From: a virus
Reading direction: 5' to 3' (one strand)
DNA length: 64,000 bases
IMG/VR virus record: IMGVR_UViG_3300042894_004766
Location: 1-64,000 of that record
Numbering within the stretch: the first letter of the stretch is position 1; every line of letters begins with the position of its first letter. Both the position numbers and the translations under genes were made by a program. Below, in pieces: positions 183-11,845 of this stretch. The notes under the pieces are model-generated. The model did not search any database, was not told where the DNA came from, and saw only the letters and a program-made list of their open reading frames with translations.

Positions 183-255
183 TAGCGGGAGAAGGACTCG
201 AACCTCCGACCTTATGGTTATGAGCCACACGAGCTACCTACTGCTCTATCCCGCG
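183..255 (-). tRNA. Initiator-type tRNA-Met (CAT)
   Basis: CGCGGGA...TGTGG CTCATAA CCATA...TCCCGCT A; 1-72 mismatch and A11-U24 typical of tRNA-fMet. Confidence 0.9.
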
Positions 256-260
256 ATATG

Positions 261-376
261 TAGTCTGTACGGGATTCGAACCCGCGTTCCTCTCTCGTGA
301 CTAAGAGAATGTCCTGTTTACCTTACTTTAATGCCGAAGCTTTTTGTTCAGTAAACATCCACTAGACGAACAGACC
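261..376 (-). tRNA. tRNA-Glu-scaffold tRNA-like RNA; long D-loop hairpin; 8-nt anticodon-position loop
   Basis: Same acceptor, T arm and D-stem as 5-93; D-loop insert TGTTTAC...GC TTCG GC...GTAAACA; arm TTCTCT TAGTCACG AGAGAG. Confidence 0.75.
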
Positions 377-411
377 GAAGAGTGTCGGAATTAAAACGCG
401 CAGCACTCTTA

Positions 412-455
412 TTTTGTTTGACAAAGATACGGTGACTTTTTTAATCTACCAAATC
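412..455 (-). promoter_or_regulatory. Bacteroidota primary-sigma promoter, 44-bp repeat copy 1
   Basis: GATTTGGTAGATTAAAAAAGTCACCGTATCTTTGTCAAACAAAA: TTTG (-33) and TATCTTTG (-7 TAnnTTTG). Confidence 0.85.
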
Positions 456-475
456 TTTTTTCATTTATTTTTTTG

Positions 476-573
476 TAGTCTGTACGGGATTCGAACCCGC
501 GTGTTCTCCTTAATTGCCGAACCGGCGAGAAGACATCCTATCTACCGAGGTAGCTCCACTAGATGAACAGACC
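476..573 (-). tRNA. tRNA-Glu-scaffold tRNA-like RNA; extra hairpin in anticodon arm; no canonical anticodon loop
   Basis: Same acceptor and T arm; D-loop insert CTACC TC GGTAG; arm TCTTCT C GCCG GTT CGGC AATTA AGGAGA. Confidence 0.75.
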
Positions 574-633
574 GAAGAGTTGTGCTTTCTTACACCACGA
601 AGCCGAGTATTTCACACGACGCCTACTCTTATT

Positions 634-677
634 TTTTGTTTGACAAAGATACGGTGACTTTTTTAATCTACCAAATC
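634..677 (-). promoter_or_regulatory. Bacteroidota sigma promoter, repeat copy 2
   Basis: Identical to 412-455. Confidence 0.85.
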
Positions 678-697
678 TTTTTTCAATTTTTTTTTTG

Positions 698-775
698 TGA
701 CCGAAGTTGGGTTCGAGCCAACAACTAGCGTTACTTCTATTTCAAGAATACTACTTTACATTAAGTTACCCGGCC
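698..775 (-). tRNA. Degenerate tRNA-like element, isotype unclear
   Basis: Acceptor GGCCGGG/TTCGGTC (three G-U pairs), D arm ACTT/AAGT, T arm GTTGG CTCGAAC CCAAC, irregular anticodon arm TTCT TGAAAT AGAA. Confidence 0.55.
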
Positions 776-779
776 TTAG

Positions 780-890
780 TAGTCTGTAAGGGATTCGAAC
801 CCATGTTTACAATCTCTCCATATACCAGGGCATAAAAGCGTGAGATTGTCGTCCTATTACCGAAGTAATATACCGCTAGACGAACAGACC
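780..890 (-). tRNA. tRNA-Glu-scaffold tRNA-like RNA; UUCG hairpin in D-loop; 8-bp arm closing a 25-nt loop
   Basis: GGTCTGT...TATTAC TTCG GTAATA GGAC G ACAATCTC[25 nt]GAGATTGT AAAC ATGGG TTCGAAT CCCTT ACAGACT A. Confidence 0.75.
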
Positions 891-897
891 ATTTTAT

Positions 898-941
898 TTT
901 TGTTTGACAAAGATACGGTGACTTTTTTAATCTACCAAATC
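898..941 (-). promoter_or_regulatory. Bacteroidota sigma promoter, repeat copy 3 (related copy at ~1106-1138)
   Basis: Identical to 412-455. Confidence 0.85.
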
Positions 942-1088
942 TTTTTCAGATTTTTTTAATTCTTTTTCTTGAAGTCTCAAAAGTTTACAAACTTCTGAAT
1001 AATGGTAGTAAACACCATCTTGACCTTGAACACCTGTTGCATTTTCTAAAATGAAATCTCCAATAGGTCTTTTTATTTCTTCTGTCAT
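927..1088 (-). CDS. Small hypothetical protein
   Basis: ORF; start moved to MTEEIK because a TATCTTTG promoter overlaps the upstream ATG. Confidence 0.55.
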   Translation of the reverse strand: MTEEIKRPIGDFILENATGVQGQDGVYYHYSEVCKLLRLQEKELKKSEKDLVD

Positions 1089-1153
1089 TATTTCTTTATT
1101 AGAGTACAAAGATACAAAAGTTTTTTAATCTACCAAATATTTTTCAGAATTTT

Positions 1154-7077: not shown

Positions 7078-7494
7078 TTATGATTTGTAGAAATCTCCTT
7101 TTTCTTCTACGTATTTCAATCTTGCTTCTTCAGCTTGAGATCTTAGTTTAACATATTCTTTTCTAAGTAATTGAATTTGTTTTTCTTTTTGACTTGTTTC
7201 TAATACAACTTTGAAATCGATAACATTTTTAAGTTTTAAGTACCAGAAGAAGTTATTGATTGACTTTTGTCCGGTTTTTTTACCAACAAGAAATAATCGT
7301 CTTGCTAACTTTTTCTTTCCAGTTTGTGTTAAGTGATCAATCTTAAAGTTTATCCACTCTAAGTGTTCGTTTACTTCACCGTCAACTTTTATTACATATT
7401 TTTTATCAATTGCAACTTGTGTTGCTTTTACCATTAGATTTTTCAAGTTTACATCTAATTCATTTACTCCTGTGTTTGTTTGTTTTGTGTCCAT
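7078..7494 (-). CDS. Hypothetical protein with basic C-terminal coiled coil
   Basis: 138-aa ORF followed by a terminator. Confidence 0.7.
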   Translation of the reverse strand: MDTKQTNTGVNELDVNLKNLMVKATQVAIDKKYVIKVDGEVNEHLEWINFKIDHLTQTGKKKLARRLFLVGKKTGQKSINNFFWYLKLKNVIDFKVVLETSQKEKQIQLLRKEYVKLRSQAEEARLKYVEEKGDFYKS

Positions 7495-7604: not shown

Positions 7605-8195
7605 TTATATTTCGTTTAATTTTTTCACTTTAAATATTTTTTTGATGTTATCAAGTTTTGCTTTAATATCATCAAGTAATTGTCTTTGAACTCTAGTAAA
7701 AGTTCTACCTTCTTCCATTGCGTCAACTATTGCACAAGTTTCTCTGTAATAGTTTGTTCTGAATCTTTCAGAAGCAGTAAATGCGTCTGCAATGTTATTA
7801 AATCTATCTGATAGTTTAATAGTAAACGCTTTGTCAGACATTTTCAACATTTTATTGATTAGGTAGTTTGTTTTACTACCTCCCCATTTATGTTTAATTT
7901 CATCTGTGTTAGATGTTAACTCTAACATAATATCTGCAACCTCTTTACCAAAAAGTTCTTTCACATCAGCATAAGCATCCCAGATGTTATCATAACAATC
8001 TTCTGCAACATCGTGTACTAAAGCAGCGATTAAGGTTGCTTCATCAGTAGTGTACAATTTTAATGTACCATTTACTTTTTGTACGTGTGCGTCAAAGTAA
8101 GGTTGTCCAGTAAACTTTCTTACTTGATCTTTATGAGCTCTTTGGGCAAATTCCCAAGCTAATTTTTCTTTCGGTGTAATCGGTGCGTTCGCCAT
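7605..8195 (-). CDS. RelA/SpoT-type HD hydrolase (small alarmone hydrolase/Mesh1-like)
   Basis: AHKDQVRK...PY..H, AALVHDVAED, IKLSDRFNN. Confidence 0.85.
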   Translation of the reverse strand: MANAPITPKEKLAWEFAQRAHKDQVRKFTGQPYFDAHVQKVNGTLKLYTTDEATLIAALVHDVAEDCYDNIWDAYADVKELFGKEVADIMLELTSNTDEIKHKWGGSKTNYLINKMLKMSDKAFTIKLSDRFNNIADAFTASERFRTNYYRETCAIVDAMEEGRTFTRVQRQLLDDIKAKLDNIKKIFKVKKLNEI

Positions 8196-8236: not shown

Positions 8237-8599
8237 TTATTTTATATATTCCTCAAATTCTTTATAGACTCTTTCCATAAATCTTTTTTCTCTATCAGTT
8301 ATATCTGGTCCTAAATCAAATATAAATTTACTTTTTATGATTTCCCAGTTTTCTTCTTTTGTTTTATCATCATCATAATTATCATAGATAATATCAAATG
8401 AATCTGTACAATAAATATCTACTTTATCTCCTTTTATAGTAGATACATAGTTGTCATTTTCATCAATATATGAGTAGTGACCATCGTAATATCCAGGTAT
8501 TCTTGCGGCACCTATTGGTACACCACCATACATTCTTACATGTGATTCTCCTGTTGGGTCCGCATCTTGCAATATTTTTATAAATTCTTTTGTTGTCAT
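8237..8599 (-). CDS. Hypothetical protein
   Basis: 120-aa ORF in the operon. Confidence 0.7.
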   Translation of the reverse strand: MTTKEFIKILQDADPTGESHVRMYGGVPIGAARIPGYYDGHYSYIDENDNYVSTIKGDKVDIYCTDSFDIIYDNYDDDKTKEENWEIIKSKFIFDLGPDITDREKRFMERVYKEFEEYIK

Positions 8600-8601
8600 A
8601 A

Positions 8602-9525
8602 TTATTGTTTATTTTTTAATAAGTTTAAAACTTGTTTACCTCTTTTATCTAATTGTTTGTATTTTATTTTAAATGAAGTACTTTCAATACCACCAAATAT
8701 CGCTGCATTAGAATGTAATTCACAAAGTGATGTTACTAATAGTGTAAAAACGGTTTCGATTGAGTTTTTTGTAACAAAGTCTTCTACTTCATCTGATTTA
8801 ATAGTATGAAATACCATATCTTTTAAGATTAAATCTGCAACTACTTTGTTATCAGAAATCTTAGAGAATGTATCAAATGATACTTGTGCGTGGTTTGGAA
8901 AGTGTCTTTTACCTTCTTCATCAATTATCATACAATATGCCTTCCCACAATCGTGCATTACTTGATATTCCTTAATATCTTCTAATGAATGTAAGTTGTT
9001 AAGTATAAACTCTTTATTATCTGTAAACCAAGTAGGTAACTTCCATTCAAATACTGGATTACTACTAGTTAAATCGTTAAAATACTTATTGACAGATATG
9101 CCGTGATCTAGTACACTTTGTGTATCAGTTTGAGGTGTATCAATCATATCAGAGATAACTTTCTCGTATGTTAGTTTTGATTTTTTACCTAAAAGTGGAA
9201 GATATGAAACTTTCTTTCTGACATCTTTATCTGCGTATAAACAAATAGATGTAAGTTCATCGTTTAAATCTGGTTCGTAAAATTTTGTGACTGAGGTAAG
9301 TTTGGATAACTTTAAGTATAAGTCATTTAATTCTTTTTCATTGTTTACTTGTAAACAGATGATAGAATTAGATGTAGTTTTCCATTCTTTAAATTGTTGT
9401 GGAAACTCGTATGCGAAGTCTGCAATTGAGTGTGTTGATTGTTGGCTCTGATAGCCTGGAGTTAAATCACTTCTAGTGATAACTACTAATTTTGCTTGGT
9501 CTTTGTTAATCTAAGTCATTGTCAT
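8602..9525 (-). CDS. Pth2-like peptidyl-tRNA hydrolase fused to an HD domain, with an in-frame TAG at 9511-9513
   Basis: Frame is open from 9510 to 8602: KLVVITRSDLTPGYQSQQSTHS...FYEPDL...LPLLG (Pth2-like), then HDCGK...HFPNHA (HD). The upstream ATGs (9525, 9519) are separated from it only by TAG. Confidence 0.8.
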
Positions 9526-9527
9526 AA

Positions 9528-9713
9528 TTATTTATTATTTTTTAAAAATTGTTGTTCTTTTTTAGTTAGACTCTTCATACCTTTTTCTGAAATTTTATCC
9601 AGTATTCGATTTAATTCGTCTTCTTTTTCTTTTCTTATTGAGTTAAATTCATAATCATCAATAAGTCGTTTTTCAACGTTTGTTTTAAATAGTTTTTTAA
9701 ACCAACTTAACAT
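9528..9713 (-). CDS. Small protein with DUF6576-like C-terminus
   Basis: LNRILDKISEKGMKSLTKKEQQFL. Confidence 0.65.
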   Translation of the reverse strand: MLSWFKKLFKTNVEKRLIDDYEFNSIRKEKEDELNRILDKISEKGMKSLTKKEQQFLKNNK

Positions 9714-9736: not shown

Positions 9737-9802
9737 TGGCTCTGGAGGGGAATGATCCCTCGTCTTCTGGTTTTAGAGGCCTTAGACTAACCATACAAAG
9801 CC
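9737..9802 (-). ncRNA. D-arm-defective tRNA-like RNA with CUA (amber) loop remnant and 11-nt segment complementary to the Pth2 amber site
   Basis: GGCTTTG TA TGGTTAGTCTAAGGC CTCTAAA ACCAG AAGAC GAGGG ATCATTC CCCTC CAGAGCC A; own TATCTTTG promoter (9814-9821) and TTTG (9841-9844). Confidence 0.75.
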
Positions 9803-9845
9803 GTTTTGTTTTACAAAGATACAACTAATTTTTAATACACCAAAT

Positions 9846-10394: not shown

Positions 10395-11648
10395 TTAGTT
10401 TAATTTAGCTCTGATTCCGGGCATATAAATCTCAATCAATTGTATCAATTCTTCTTTACACTCTGGAGTCAATGATTTATTTTTATTTTGATTCAACAAA
10501 ATCATAAATGAACTTACAACTTTATTAAATTTAAAGGCATCTGTAAAGTCAAATATAGTTTTCTTAAATGATTCTATATCAATAGTTTCTTCACCTGTTT
10601 TATCCAACCAAGTTTTCATTCTATTTATAAATCTTCTAATTCCAATTATATTTTCATCAGACCAAGAACCACCATCAAAGTAGTGACCAATAAACATCAA
10701 GTAAAATCTGATTTCATCTGGATCATATCCATCCAAACTAACTACATTTCCCTTTGATTTAGACATCTTTTCACCACCATTCAATATCATTCCTTGGTGT
10801 ACCAACTTATTAATTGGTTCTTCAAAGTCAATAAATCCAATATCATACAAAAACATTGTGATAAATCTAATATAAATCAAGTGCATACAAGCATGTTCTG
10901 AACCACCAACATACAAATCAACTGGTTTTGGTTTAATACCTTTCATCAAACAATAGATAATAGTATAAATAGAACTATCTACGAATGTGTCCATTGTATC
11001 TGTCTCACCTTCAATAGGAATAGGGCAACCCCAACTTCTTTGTCTTGATACACACCAGTCGTGTTGATTTTCCAACCAATTTCTTTGTGACTTTATTGTA
11101 GATTCTGGAAAGTCAATCTTATCCAAACCTGCAATCAATCTATCTTTATAATCTGTGATTTTGAAATACCATTGATTCAATGTTTTCTTTTCTACTTCTG
11201 TAGAACATCTTTCACATTTACCATCTTTTACTTGTTCTCTTGCCAATACAGTTTCACAACTGTTACAGAAGTCAACTTCACCATCTTTCTTATAAGCCAA
11301 ACCTTTATCATACAATTGTTTAAACAACCATTGTGTGTACTCAATATAGTTAGGATCCGAGGTAATCAACATTTCCTCGTATTGAGTATTCATGTTATCC
11401 ATCTGTATTCTAAAATTTTCTATATTTTCGTAGGTAACTTCTCTTGGATCTCTACCTACTTTTTTTGCATAGTTTTCTGCTGGCAAACCATGACTATCAT
11501 ATCCAAAGGGTTGAAAAACTTGTTCACCTTTATATCTCAAGTATCTACAGTAACTATCCATAATCGCATAGTTATACCAGTGTCCACAGTGCAAACCACT
11601 CCCAGAAGGATATGGGAAAAATGTTGCAATATATTTATAATCTTTCAT
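10395..11648 (-). CDS. Minimal leucyl-tRNA synthetase-like protein (no CP1 editing or C-terminal domain)
   Basis: FPYPSGSGLHCGH, GYDSHGLPAEN, QWYFKIT, DWCVSRQRSWGCPIP, TMDTFVDSS, KMSKSKGN. Confidence 0.9.
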   Translation of the reverse strand: MKDYKYIATFFPYPSGSGLHCGHWYNYAIMDSYCRYLRYKGEQVFQPFGYDSHGLPAENYAKKVGRDPREVTYENIENFRIQMDNMNTQYEEMLITSDPNYIEYTQWLFKQLYDKGLAYKKDGEVDFCNSCETVLAREQVKDGKCERCSTEVEKKTLNQWYFKITDYKDRLIAGLDKIDFPESTIKSQRNWLENQHDWCVSRQRSWGCPIPIEGETDTMDTFVDSSIYTIIYCLMKGIKPKPVDLYVGGSEHACMHLIYIRFITMFLYDIGFIDFEEPINKLVHQGMILNGGEKMSKSKGNVVSLDGYDPDEIRFYLMFIGHYFDGGSWSDENIIGIRRFINRMKTWLDKTGEETIDIESFKKTIFDFTDAFKFNKVVSSFMILLNQNKNKSLTPECKEELIQLIEIYMPGIRAKLN

Positions 11649-11845
11649 TTCTTTGTTTTTTTCTTGTAAAGTGACTTGTGTCAATTTTTAATTTTTTAAT
11701 TATTCTATAAATTTTACTTTCAATTAGTTTTGTGTGTTCTTGTTGTATATTTGTACAAATATCTTTACTATCCACTATGTTCCCTACTTATATTTTTAAT
11801 TTAAGCTTAGTTGCAAATATAATAATTAAATTTAATATATAAACT

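What the first reader, a model, noticed from the sequence alone, without database searches (positions are those of the whole stretch)
8602..9525. Hidden Pth2-HD fusion gene interrupted by an amber at its start
The ORF track reports only the HD half (8602-9147). The frame is open a further 121 codons upstream, encoding a Pth2-like domain (KLVVITRSDL.PG.Q..QSTH) with no ATG, GTG or TTG start. The nearest ATGs (9519, 9525) lie just beyond a single TAG. Expression needs readthrough or initiation at the ATT after the stop (infC-style). The MTMT*/MT* minigene could alternatively sense peptidyl-tRNA drop-off, as lambda bar minigenes do, giving feedback control of a peptidyl-tRNA hydrolase.
Basis: partly seen in the sequence, partly recalled or inferred. 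Interest (0 to 1): 0.85.

Follow-up and report, generated by a model that had tools for sequence, protein, structure and literature searches.

The report
Amber-gated phage tRNA-end hydrolase gene
A large phage keeps the stop codon UAG at codon 5 of a two-domain tRNA-end hydrolase gene and encodes a UAG-reading tRNA-like gene just upstream; dozens of distant phages keep the same pairing, so the enzyme is probably made only when that tRNA overrides the stop.

Summary
On the minus strand the frame reads ATG ACA ATG ACT TAG(9513-9511) ATT..., then 302 open codons with no ATG/GTG/TTG for 121 codons.

The product is a Pth2-fold domain fused to an HD domain. The HD domain is closest to that of bacterial CCA-adding enzymes.

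The TAG is not a private mutation. 53 of 77 homologous phage loci (20 of 27 clusters at 70% identity) have ATG, 1-7 codons, then a stop, in frame with the Pth2-like domain. These include the cultured phages pT24, GAP32 and XacN1.

- The stop is TAG in 19 clusters and TAA in one.
- 16 of the 20 clusters carry a tRNA with the matching anticodon in the fetched locus (CUA for TAG, UUA for the TAA case).
- The window has its own candidate: a 66-nt, D-arm-reduced tRNA-like gene with a CUA anticodon at 9802-9737. ARAGORN missed it.

The contig otherwise uses the standard code.

Best reading: suppressor-tRNA-gated expression. General initiation at the ATT and the bar-like minigene idea are not supported. 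No experiment exists, and the [A/G]T[T/A] codon kept after the stop is unexplained.

This scan found the same cassette before on other DNA. I found no published description.

The parts
9814..9844 (-). Bacteroidota-type promoter-like motif TTTGGTGTATTAAAAATTAGTTGTATCTTTG (-33 TTTG, -7 TAnnTTTG), ending 11 nt upstream of the tRNA-like gene
   Evidence: this extended motif occurs 5 times in the window. The other four lie in the array of odd tRNA-like genes at 255-1137. That this is the Bacteroidota promoter consensus is from established knowledge. Activity was not tested.
9737..9802 (-). 66-nt tRNA-like gene with anticodon loop CUCUAAA (anticodon CUA at 9776-9774). It has a perfect 7-bp acceptor stem, T stem GAGGG/CCCTC with an unusual loop AUCAUUC, a D region of only about 10 nt and a weak anticodon stem. 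It is the candidate amber suppressor.
   Evidence: Rfam tRNA 22.9 bits, below the 29-bit cut-off. A model built from 26 cassette tRNA(CUA) genes scores it 35.6 bits, E about 1e-8, rough. Homologous elements sit at the same place in L020, L010, L011/12 and L048, and a canonical 73-nt tRNA(CUA) in L023. TCTAAA is invariant. ARAGORN misses it.
9528..9713 (-). 61-aa ORF (Pfam DUF6576) between the tRNA-like gene and the gated gene. Its TAA lies 2 nt before the ATG at 9525, so translational coupling is possible.
   Evidence: E 9e-13. It is conserved at this place in the close relatives L010, L011, L020 and L048 only.
9514..9525 (-). Leader ATG ACA ATG ACT (MTMT). The ATG at 9525 is homologous to the relatives' single ATG (MKNT*, MKAT*).
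9511..9513 (-). In-frame amber codon TAG, followed by A (ATT)
   Evidence: An early stop is kept in 20 of 27 homolog clusters, and the next base is a purine in 20 of 20.
9181..9510 (-). Pth2-fold domain (residues 1-110 after the TAG), with motifs KLVVITRSDLTPGYQSQQSTH and EPD
   Evidence: AF2 model, pLDDT 94.9. 1wn2: Z 14.5, rmsd 2.1, 105 residues aligned. Foldseek on 2zv3, 1q7s and 3erj: TM 0.72-0.76. Profile against PDB Pth2 chains: E 1e-5. Pfam PTH2: 22.8 bits.
8602..9177 (-). HD-domain half (residues 112-302) plus the stop TAA at 8604-8602. H136, H186-D187, H207, D231 and H235 are invariant.
   Evidence: 3wfo_A, a class II bacterial CCA-adding enzyme, residues 249-447: Z 14.1, 163 aligned. 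Other HD proteins score Z 10.7 or less. Profile hit to the same chains, E 0.008. Invariant columns. phrog_14850.
8237..8599 (-). 120-aa ORF of unknown function, a recurring neighbour of the Pth2-like gene
   Evidence: Homologs lie just downstream of the Pth2-like gene in L013/14, L018 and L021 (47-51% identity) and in L054 (29%). No Pfam or PHROG hit.
7605..8195 (-). 196-aa HD_4 protein of the Mesh1 / small-alarmone-hydrolase type, a recurring neighbour
   Evidence: Pfam HD_4, E 1e-14. PDB hits to Mesh1 3nqw and the SAHs 7qoe and 7qoc, E 1e-9. Homologs (27-31% identity) lie next to the Pth2-like gene in the distant loci L059, L067, L072, L076 and L077.
7078..7494 (-). 138-aa ORF of unknown function. 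Its C-terminal half recurs beside the Pth2-like gene in distant loci.
   Evidence: L003/L031, L006, L030 and L042, 32-38% identity.

Best explanation
This is a stop-codon-gated gene. Translation starts at the ATG at 9525 (or 9519), possibly coupled to the upstream small ORF. After 2-4 codons the ribosome meets UAG. If release factor 1 wins, only a tetrapeptide is made. If a phage-encoded elongator tRNA with anticodon CUA reads the UAG, a protein of about 306 aa is made. The candidate tRNA is the 66-nt tRNA-like gene at 9802-9737, or a further copy in the unsequenced part of this genome, which is probably several hundred kb. Enzyme output then follows suppressor-tRNA activity relative to RF1.

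The protein joins two domains that both point at the tRNA 3' end:
- a Pth2-fold domain, an ester hydrolase acting on the peptidyl- or aminoacyl-bond at A76;
- an HD phosphohydrolase domain, closest to the HD region of bacterial CCA-adding enzymes.

I infer that it cleans or recycles tRNA 3' ends, working with the neighbouring Mesh1/SAH-type HD_4 protein.

Shown here: the sequence layout, the folds, purifying selection, conservation of the early stop, linkage to suppressor tRNAs, stop/anticodon matching, and the standard code elsewhere in the contig. Inferred: that the UAG is actually decoded, by which tRNA and with which amino acid, and the enzyme's substrate.
For: 1. The early in-frame stop is kept in 53 of 77 homologous loci, which is 20 of 27 clusters at 70% identity. 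In 18 of those 20 clusters no ATG/GTG/TTG lies between the stop and the conserved core.
2. The stop is TAG in 19 of 20 clusters, although TAG ends only 11 of 112 long ORFs in this contig and TAA ends 93. The identity of the stop is therefore constrained, which termination-reinitiation would not require.
3. A tRNA with the matching anticodon lies within the fetched locus in 16 of the 20 clusters. It is CUA with TAG, and UUA with the single TAA case, L037.
4. Cultured phages show the same layout:
- pT24: ATG AAA TAG ATA, with a tRNA(CUA) 2.5 kb upstream.
- GAP32: ATG GCA CAA TAG AAT in the Pth2-like gene, a second TAG at codon 47 of the adjacent HD-domain gene, and a tRNA(CUA) at 293273-293345.
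- XacN1 ORF364: ATG AAG TAG ACC. Its authors reported two CUA suppressors with no identifiable target (PMC5852040).
5. The window's own tRNA-like(CUA) gene sits about 225 nt upstream behind a promoter motif shared with the phage's other tRNA-like genes.
6. The base after the stop is a purine in 20 of 20 clusters, against a baseline of 0.67 (P about 3e-4). By established knowledge of E. coli amber suppression this context favours suppression (recalled, not checked).
7. Where Shine-Dalgarno motifs exist they are spaced for the upstream ATG (L005, L047, L051-55, XacN1).
8. dN/dS of the start-less N-terminal domain is 0.14-0.25.
9. The Pth2-like and HD parts are fused (window, pT24, L010, L011, L023, L048), fused in reverse order (XacN1), adjacent (GAP32), or split by an inserted ORF (LR745206).
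Against: - Nothing is experimental.
- The window's tRNA-like element is atypical. Its D region is about 10 nt, its anticodon stem has 2-3 pairs, its T loop lacks T54/A58, and its Rfam score is below the cut-off. It may not be a working suppressor.
- No canonical tRNA(CUA) is present in the 99.8-kb contig.
- Four early-stop clusters (the megaphage lineages L002, L003, L004 and L005) show no suppressor in the fetched flanks. A limited pattern search of three whole records found none.
- TAG also ends about 10% of this contig's long ORFs, so a strong suppressor would cause read-through of the phage's own genes. Their +4 bases show no avoidance signal.
- The codon after the stop is ATT, ATA or GTA in all 20 cluster representatives, against a 13% baseline. 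Suppression alone does not explain this, and it also fits near-cognate reinitiation.
- The Lys that I recall as catalytic in Pth2 is not conserved here (Tyr, Gln or Leu), so the chemistry may differ.
Confidence: 0.68

Rival explanations
1. Termination-reinitiation. The ribosome translates the 2-5-codon leader, RF1 releases it at UAG, and the ribosome restarts with initiator tRNA at the adjacent near-cognate codon (AUU here). This gives a low, IF3-sensitive level of enzyme without any suppressor. It could also coexist with suppression as a basal mode.
For: The codon after the stop is ATT (14), ATA (2) or GTA (4) in all 20 cluster representatives, against a 13% baseline for these codons plus GTT. 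AUU is a known weak start codon (infC, established knowledge). The window's tRNA-like element is atypical.
Against: - Family members have GTT, AAA, ACA, AGC, AAC, AAT or ACC after the stop, and most of these cannot initiate.
- In L038 and L046 the conserved core begins 0-1 codons after the TAG.
- GAP32's second TAG is at codon 47 of the HD-domain gene.
- Reinitiation does not explain why the stop is TAG in 19 of 20 clusters in genomes that prefer TAA.
- It does not explain why a matching suppressor tRNA is linked, or why the one TAA case sits with a UUA tRNA.
Confidence: 0.12
2. MTMT*/MT* acts like a lambda bar minigene, whose peptidyl-tRNA drop-off reports cellular peptidyl-tRNA hydrolase capacity and feeds back on synthesis of the phage Pth2-like enzyme.
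For: The leader is formally a 3-5-codon minigene directly in front of a Pth2-fold gene. Short peptidyl-tRNAs are prone to drop-off (established knowledge).
Against: No mechanism links drop-off to translation of the downstream frame, because there is no start codon after the stop. The model predicts no constraint on the type of stop and no linkage to a suppressor tRNA, yet both are seen. As I recall them, bar minigenes are free-standing and end in UAA.
Confidence: 0.04
3. Genome-wide recoding. The phage reads TAG as an amino acid everywhere (code 15), and this gene is just one recoded gene among many.
For: Some pipelines called close homologs with TAG read as Q ('MTQINK...', 'MKNTQINK...'). Relatives are megaphages, a group in which recoding is known (10.1101/2021.08.26.457843).
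Against: - Under code 11 the 99.8-kb contig already gives 112 ORFs of at least 100 aa that cover about 92% of it.
- Making TAG sense adds no more coding than making TGA sense.
- TAG ends 11 long ORFs.
- The only other ATG-x-TAG-ORF junction is spurious.
Confidence: 0.04
4. Dead gene or assembly artefact. The TAG is a private nonsense mutation or a sequencing error.
For: There is no canonical start after the stop, and gene callers report only the HD half.
Against: The same TAG is present in many independent assemblies and in distant lineages. dN/dS is 0.14-0.25 over the region that would be dead.
Confidence: 0.01

Closest known systems
Stop-codon recoding in phages with phage-encoded suppressor tRNAs (TAG read as Gln, 'code 15'; crAss-like and Lak phages; 10.1101/2021.08.26.457843, PMC9523058)
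   Same: A phage-encoded CUA tRNA is proposed to read in-frame UAG, so that expression of the recoded genes depends on that tRNA.
   Different: In those phages dozens of mostly late genes carry many in-frame TAGs and TAG is no longer a terminator. Here the contig uses the standard code. One gene family carries a single stop at codon 3-5 and sits next to the tRNA. The literature treats suppressor tRNAs in non-recoded phages as unexplained (PMC12386605; PMC5852040).
prfB (release factor 2) autoregulation through an early in-frame UGA (established knowledge)
   Same: An early, conserved in-frame stop in a translation-factor-like gene makes its synthesis depend on how that stop is decoded.
   Different: prfB continues by a +1 frameshift, and its product is the factor that reads the stop. 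Here the frame continues in phase, decoding needs a tRNA, and whether the enzyme feeds back on that tRNA is unknown.
Archaeal/eukaryotic peptidyl-tRNA hydrolase Pth2 (PF01981; PDB 1wn2, 2zv3, 3erj, 1q7s Bit1)
   Same: The fold is the same (Z 14.5; TM 0.72-0.76). The R-x-D-L...Q..H motif and an acidic EPD motif align to Pth2's DAG region.
   Different: The Pfam score is just under the cut-off. The G-K-G-K lysine, which I recall as catalytic, is Tyr, Gln or Leu here. The domain is fused to an HD domain, found in phages, and gated by a stop codon.
HD region of class II bacterial CCA-adding enzymes (PDB 3wfo/3wfr; identified as a class II bacterial CCA-adding enzyme in 10.1101/2021.08.20.456953)
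   Same: Best structural match of residues 112-302 (Z 14.1, 163 residues aligned), plus a weak profile match (E 0.008). The HD metal-binding residues are kept.
   Different: There is no nucleotidyltransferase head or neck. The domain stands alone or is fused to the Pth2-like domain. Its activity is unknown.
Lambda bar minigenes (established knowledge)
   Same: A very short ORF (ATG, 1-3 codons, stop), a phage context, and a link to peptidyl-tRNA hydrolase biology.
   Different: bar minigenes are free-standing and act by sequestering tRNA in Pth-deficient hosts. Here the stop is in phase with a long conserved ORF and matches a linked suppressor tRNA.

Membership tests
Pth2 (PF01981) peptidyl-tRNA hydrolase family | Pth2 alpha/beta fold | tested here: met
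   AF2 model with pLDDT 94.9. 1wn2: Z 14.5, rmsd 2.1, 105 of 118 residues. Foldseek on 2zv3, 3erj and 1q7s: TM(target) 0.72-0.76.
Pth2 (PF01981) peptidyl-tRNA hydrolase family | Pfam model score at or above the gathering cut-off | tested here: inconclusive
   22.8 bits for the domain alone and 21.3 for the whole protein, against a cut-off of 23. A profile of the family hits PDB Pth2 chains at E 1e-5. Several homologs carry a precomputed PF01981 hit.
Pth2 (PF01981) peptidyl-tRNA hydrolase family | Catalytic residues (the Asp of the D-A-G region and the Lys of G-K-G-K; their roles are recalled from the S. solfataricus work and were not checked here) | tested here: inconclusive
   The Asp equivalent is invariant (E79-P80-D81). 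The Lys position is Tyr in the window (PGYQ) and Gln or Leu in other members.
Pth2 (PF01981) peptidyl-tRNA hydrolase family | Hydrolysis of peptidyl-tRNA | not testable with these tools
   Needs an enzyme assay.
HD-domain metal-dependent phosphohydrolases | H...HD...D metal-binding residues | tested here: met
   H136, H186-D187, H207, D231 and H235 are invariant in 43 sequences.
HD-domain metal-dependent phosphohydrolases | HD helical fold | tested here: met
   Residues 112-302: Z 14.1 to 3wfo_A, and Z 8-10.7 to GlyRS-beta, PhnZ, GppA, PgpH and YhaM.
HD-domain metal-dependent phosphohydrolases | Pfam HD model hit | tested here: inconclusive
   The window protein has no Pfam hit at E up to 1. 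One homolog, P0098, carries PF01966.
Code-15 (TAG-recoded) phages | In-frame TAG in many genes and TAG not used as a terminator | tested here: not met
   Only this gene is affected. TAG ends 11 of 112 long ORFs. Coding is about 92% under code 11.
Code-15 (TAG-recoded) phages | Phage-encoded tRNA with CUA anticodon | tested here: inconclusive
   The window has an atypical 66-nt tRNA-like(CUA) gene (22.9 bits with Rfam, 35.6 bits with the custom model). Canonical tRNA(CUA) genes are present in many homologous loci.
tRNA (Rfam RF00005), for the element at 9737-9802 | Score at or above the gathering cut-off and a full cloverleaf | tested here: not met
   22.9 bits against 29. The acceptor stem, T arm and anticodon loop are present, the D arm is reduced to about 10 nt, and the anticodon stem is weak. 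It works like, and derives from, a tRNA(CUA). The relative L023 has a canonical one at the same place.
prfB-type autoregulation | Conserved early in-frame stop | tested here: met
prfB-type autoregulation | The product controls decoding of its own stop (feedback) | not testable with these tools
   Needs genetics or biochemistry.
Lambda bar-type minigenes | Toxicity or tRNA sequestration through peptidyl-tRNA drop-off in Pth-limited cells | not testable with these tools
   Only the formal minigene layout is seen.

The most novel reading that the evidence does not exclude
The cassette is a self-referential translational circuit. An early UAG makes synthesis of a two-domain tRNA-3'-end enzyme (Pth2-like plus CCA-enzyme-type HD) proportional to the activity of the cassette's own, structurally minimal CUA tRNA. 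The enzyme in turn acts on that tRNA by deacylating, recycling or repairing it. This would be a prfB-like homeostat that lets a standard-code megaphage run a controlled level of amber read-through in the infected cell, and it would be the long-sought client of 'orphan' phage suppressor tRNAs.
Probability: 0.2. Interest if true: 0.9.

Novelty: new variant of a known kind. Interest (0 to 1): 0.78.

Why it matters
Many phages that use the standard code carry suppressor tRNAs with no known target. The XacN1 authors say they could not find one (PMC5852040). A 2025 crAss-like phage study asks why such 'non-functioning' suppressors persist (PMC12386605).

A conserved client gene whose early stop matches the linked tRNA gives a concrete and testable answer. 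Cultured enterobacterial and Xanthomonas jumbo phages (GAP32, XacN1) and pT24 are ready experimental systems.

It also matters for annotation. GAP32_397, 398 and 399 and pT24 BPT24_235 are truncated or split calls of these genes.

This window adds two things:
- The fusion links the gated Pth2-like domain to an HD domain of the CCA-enzyme type, pointing to tRNA 3'-end chemistry.
- The D-arm-reduced tRNA-like(CUA) genes could be of interest as minimal suppressor tRNAs.

Tried and rejected
- Other gated genes in the contig: one more ATG-x-x-TAG-ORF junction (G000 64530-64541, a gp47/SbcD-like gene). Rejected as coincidence, because a normal MRVFMITDTHFG start follows.
- Genome-wide recoding: rejected.
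- Avoidance of suppressible contexts: the +4 bases of the 11 gene-terminal TAGs are T5/A5/G1 and backup stops are not closer than for TAA. No signal at this small n.
- Canonical tRNA(CUA) elsewhere: a pattern search (TCTAA...GTTCRA) over GAP32, LR745206, LR756502 and two IMG/VR contigs gave only chance-level hits, and ARAGORN found none in the candidates. A later Rfam search did find GAP32's tRNA(CUA). Rfam searches of three incomplete contigs (23-52% complete) were uninformative.
- My own stem-loop scanner and relaxed ARAGORN were too noisy to use, apart from individual hits confirmed otherwise.
- A consensus fold of the five D-arm-reduced tRNA-like elements recovered only the T arm, because the alignment of the distant ones is poor.
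- PADLOC gave nothing relevant.
- The search for related loci with the 9-sequence alignment failed for lack of a conserved stretch and worked with 4 sequences.
- Database proteins beginning 'MTQINK' or 'MKNTQINK' are gene calls made under TAG=Q. I did not count them as evidence for the inserted residue.
Full report
**1. Observation**

On the minus strand the upstream 61-aa ORF ends with TAA (9530-9528). Two bases later the sequence reads ATG ACA ATG ACT TAG ATT AAC AAA..., with the TAG at 9513-9511. The frame then stays open for 302 codons, to TAA at 8604-8602. The first ATG/GTG/TTG after the TAG is codon 121, which is why an ORF finder reports only 8602-9147. The description and coordinates of the finding are correct.

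**2. What the protein is**

By sequence, the first 120 residues hit Pfam PTH2 just under the cut-off (22.8 against 23 bits). They also hit two PHROG families, and the whole protein matches phrog_14850.

An AlphaFold2 model built on 43 homologs is confident (mean pLDDT 94.9).

- Residues 3-107 superpose on archaeal and human Pth2 (1wn2: Z 14.5, rmsd 2.1; 2zv3, 3erj and 1q7s: TM 0.72-0.76). A family profile finds PDB Pth2 chains at E 1e-5.
- Residues 112-302 form an HD domain. Its best match by a clear margin is the C-terminal region of a class II bacterial CCA-adding enzyme (3wfo_A residues 249-447, Z 14.1). The next HD proteins score Z 10.7 or less. A weak profile hit to the same chains agrees (E 0.008).
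- H136, H186-D187, H207, D231 and H235 are invariant.

'Pth2-HD fusion' is therefore right. As I recall, the Pth2 lysine of G-K-G-K is catalytic. Here it is Tyr, Gln or Leu, so I call the domain Pth2-like rather than a proven peptidyl-tRNA hydrolase.

**3. The TAG is conserved**

tblastn against phage records, plus a scan of IMG/VR, gave 77 homologous loci. In 53 of them the Pth2-like frame is preceded in phase by ATG, 1-3 codons (7 in one case) and a stop.

After clustering at 70% identity, 20 of 27 clusters have this layout.

| Feature among the 20 early-stop clusters | Count |
|---|---|
| Stop is TAG | 19 |
| Stop is TAA | 1 |
| No canonical start between the stop and the conserved K-L-x-x-I-T-R core | 18 |

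Cultured phages are included.

- **pT24** reads ATG AAA TAG ATA. The annotated gene starts 42 codons too late.
- **GAP32** reads ATG GCA CAA TAG AAT, and only a 77-aa fragment is annotated.
- **XacN1** reads ATG AAG TAG ACC in front of ORF364.

Between the window and three relatives, the start-less N-terminal domain has dN/dS 0.14-0.25, like the C-terminal half. The region is therefore translated.

**4.

ARAGORN on the fetched loci found a tRNA with anticodon CUA within about 1.5 kb of the gene in some 35 loci. The one locus whose early stop is TAA (L037: ATG ACT TAA ATT) has a tRNA(UUA) instead.

More tRNA(CUA) genes turned up elsewhere.

- pT24 has one 2.5 kb upstream.
- GAP32 has one 3.1 kb downstream of the TAG. 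It is the best-scoring tRNA in that genome.
- Rfam, and a covariance model that I built from 26 cassette tRNA(CUA) genes, found further atypical copies (L013, L021, L022, L040, L047, L048, L052, L053).

In all, 16 of the 20 early-stop clusters have the cognate suppressor in the fetched locus.

The window itself has one.

- A 66-nt element lies at 9802-9737 on the minus strand.
- It has a perfect 7-bp acceptor stem, a T arm, and the anticodon loop CUCUAAA.
- It scores 22.9 bits with Rfam and 35.6 bits with my model.
- Its D region is only about 10 nt, its anticodon stem is weak, and its T loop is unusual (AUCAUUC).

Homologous elements occupy the same place in L020, L010, L011/12 and L048. The more distant relative L023, which also has the fusion, has a canonical 73-nt tRNA(CUA) there. 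TCTAAA is invariant across them.

The element follows a promoter-like motif (TTTG, 19 nt, TATCTTTG). That motif also precedes the phage's other odd tRNA-like genes.

**5. Not general recoding**

- Under the standard code the 99.8-kb contig gives 112 ORFs of at least 100 aa, covering about 92% of it.
- TAG ends 11 of them and TAA ends 93.
- Reading TAG as sense adds no more coding than reading TGA as sense.
- The only other ATG-x-x-TAG-ORF junction is in front of a gp47/SbcD-like gene that has a normal start.

**6. Mechanism**

The most economical reading is that the UAG is decoded by a phage CUA tRNA, so the enzyme is made only when, and as far as, that tRNA outcompetes RF1. The points in favour:

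- The stop is constrained to TAG in genomes that prefer TAA.
- Stop and anticodon match, and the gene and tRNA are physically linked.
- The base after the stop is a purine in 20 of 20 clusters (baseline 0.67, P about 3e-4). In E. coli genetics this is the classical context for good amber suppression (from memory).
- Shine-Dalgarno motifs are spaced for the upstream ATG.
- GAP32 has a second TAG at codon 47 of the neighbouring HD-domain gene. No restart model explains that.

*Reinitiation at the ATT.* Members with AAA, ACA, AGC, AAC, AAT or ACC after the stop argue against it as the general mechanism, as does the core starting directly after the TAG in L038 and L046.

One observation keeps it alive as a side route. 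The codon after the stop is ATT, ATA or GTA in all 20 cluster representatives, against a 13% baseline. I cannot explain this constraint. It may be a decoding context.

*The bar-like drop-off sensor.* It predicts neither the TAG constraint nor the linked tRNA.

**7. What the enzyme may do (inference)**

The two domains are linked in every possible arrangement.

- They are fused in the window, pT24, L010, L011, L023 and L048.
- They are fused in reverse order in XacN1.
- They are adjacent in GAP32-like phages.
- They are split by an inserted ORF in LR745206.

Both domains point to the tRNA 3' end: an ester hydrolase fold, and the HD type found in CCA-adding enzymes.

A Mesh1 / small-alarmone-hydrolase-type HD_4 gene (7605-8195) and two unknown ORFs (8237-8599 and 7078-7494) recur next to Pth2-like genes in distant loci.

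Bacterial toxSAS defence enzymes pyrophosphorylate tRNA CCA ends (10.1101/2021.04.30.441581; PMC9712102). A phage module that cleans or repairs tRNA 3' ends is therefore plausible, but untested.

Whether the enzyme acts back on the suppressor tRNA, giving prfB-like feedback, is open.

**8. Known or new**

Phage suppressor tRNAs and TAG recoding of many late genes are known (10.1101/2021.08.26.457843; PMC9523058).

Suppressor tRNAs in phages that use the standard code are described as puzzling. The XacN1 paper could not find targets for its two CUA tRNAs. A 2025 study asks why 'non-functioning' suppressors persist.

My full-text searches found no paper that links them to an amber codon in a Pth2-like gene. 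A search of this kind cannot prove that none exists.

Earlier agents of this scan reported the same cassette on other genomes. I had reached the reading before seeing those notes, and I tested it on my own loci.

New here are:

- the fusion to the HD domain, and its reversed and split forms;
- the second amber codon in GAP32's HD-domain gene;
- XacN1 ORF364 as the missing target of that phage's suppressors;
- the D-arm-reduced tRNA-like(CUA) genes.

**9. Limits**

- The contig is a fragment. Relatives are estimated at 26-60% complete at 73-180 kb, and a homolog lies on a 623-kb contig.
- The window's tRNA-like element may not be functional.
- The inserted amino acid is unknown.

Noticed in passing
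window 255-1137 (minus strand): An array of four copies of the promoter-like motif TTTGGTAGATTAAAAA...GTATCTTTG. Three of them are followed by long (about 80-110 nt) tRNA-like genes that share the acceptor GGTCTGT/ACAGACT and a canonical T arm but have large inserts. Rfam scores them 20-32 bits. ARAGORN misses them, or in relatives calls one 'tRNA-???(cggt)'. A normal tRNA-Met lies at 182-255.
   Followed up: partly
window 10395-11684 (minus strand): A 429-aa class I aminoacyl-tRNA synthetase core of the Leu/Ile/Val/Met type (HIGH-like HCGH, KMSKS). By its length and its Pfam hits it lacks the editing domain and most of the C-terminal domains. It lies 0.6 kb upstream of the tRNA-like(CUA) gene on the same strand. 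It might charge the odd tRNA-like genes. It is conserved at that place only in close relatives.
   Followed up: partly
L110 (GAP32, NC_019401.1) 1651-2552 = record 290126-291027: GAP32_397, 398, 398A and 399 appear to be mis-annotated pieces of two amber-containing genes. One is a Pth2-like gene (ATG GCA CAA TAG AAT). The other is an HD-domain gene with TAG at codon 47. The H9-H28 hits (Erwinia, Serratia, Yersinia and Pectobacterium jumbo phages) show the same split annotation, which suggests they share it.
   Followed up: partly
L111 (XacN1, AP018399.1) 1992-2852: ORF364 is the same two domains in reverse order (HD first, then Pth2-like). It is preceded in frame by ATG AAG TAG, with a Shine-Dalgarno site spaced for that ATG. 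It is a candidate for the 'missing' target of XacN1's two CUA suppressor tRNAs.
   Followed up: partly
L058-L077 (higher-GC IMG/VR loci): Here the Pth2-like genes have long basic N-terminal extensions and normal starts. They sit next to tRNAs whose anticodon loops ARAGORN reads as 6 or 8 nt and that contain UCA ('tc', 'ttca'). These may be opal or quadruplet-type suppressors. In L062 and L064 a homologous upstream frame ends ...KR-stop (TGA or TAG), and the Pth2-like ORF frame stays open from the next codon.
   Followed up: no
L002 (LR745206.1) 1814-2491: In this 635-kb phage a 225-aa ORF of unknown function is inserted between the amber-led Pth2-like gene and the separate HD-domain gene.
   Followed up: no
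L007 and L009 (mycobacteriophages Myrna and ScoobyDoobyDoo): The annotated GTG start of the Pth2-like gene is directly preceded by GTG TAG (GTG TAG GTG), and a tRNA(CUA) lies 130-180 nt downstream. The Shine-Dalgarno spacing fits the second GTG, so the stop here may be incidental. Myrna's record annotates the CUA tRNA as tRNA-Ser.
   Followed up: no
L021 474-973 and L025 475-1024: Clusters of tRNA-like genes with a shared acceptor (AGTCAGG.../...CCTGACT) and inserts of up to about 60 nt lie upstream of the amber-led gene. One of them (L021 474-554) has a CUA anticodon loop.
   Followed up: no
G000 contig 64530-65717 (just outside the window): ATG AAA TAT TAG ATC lies in frame upstream of a gp47/SbcD-like Metallophos gene. 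I judged it coincidental, because the usual MRVFMITDTHFG start follows 23 codons later.
   Followed up: yes
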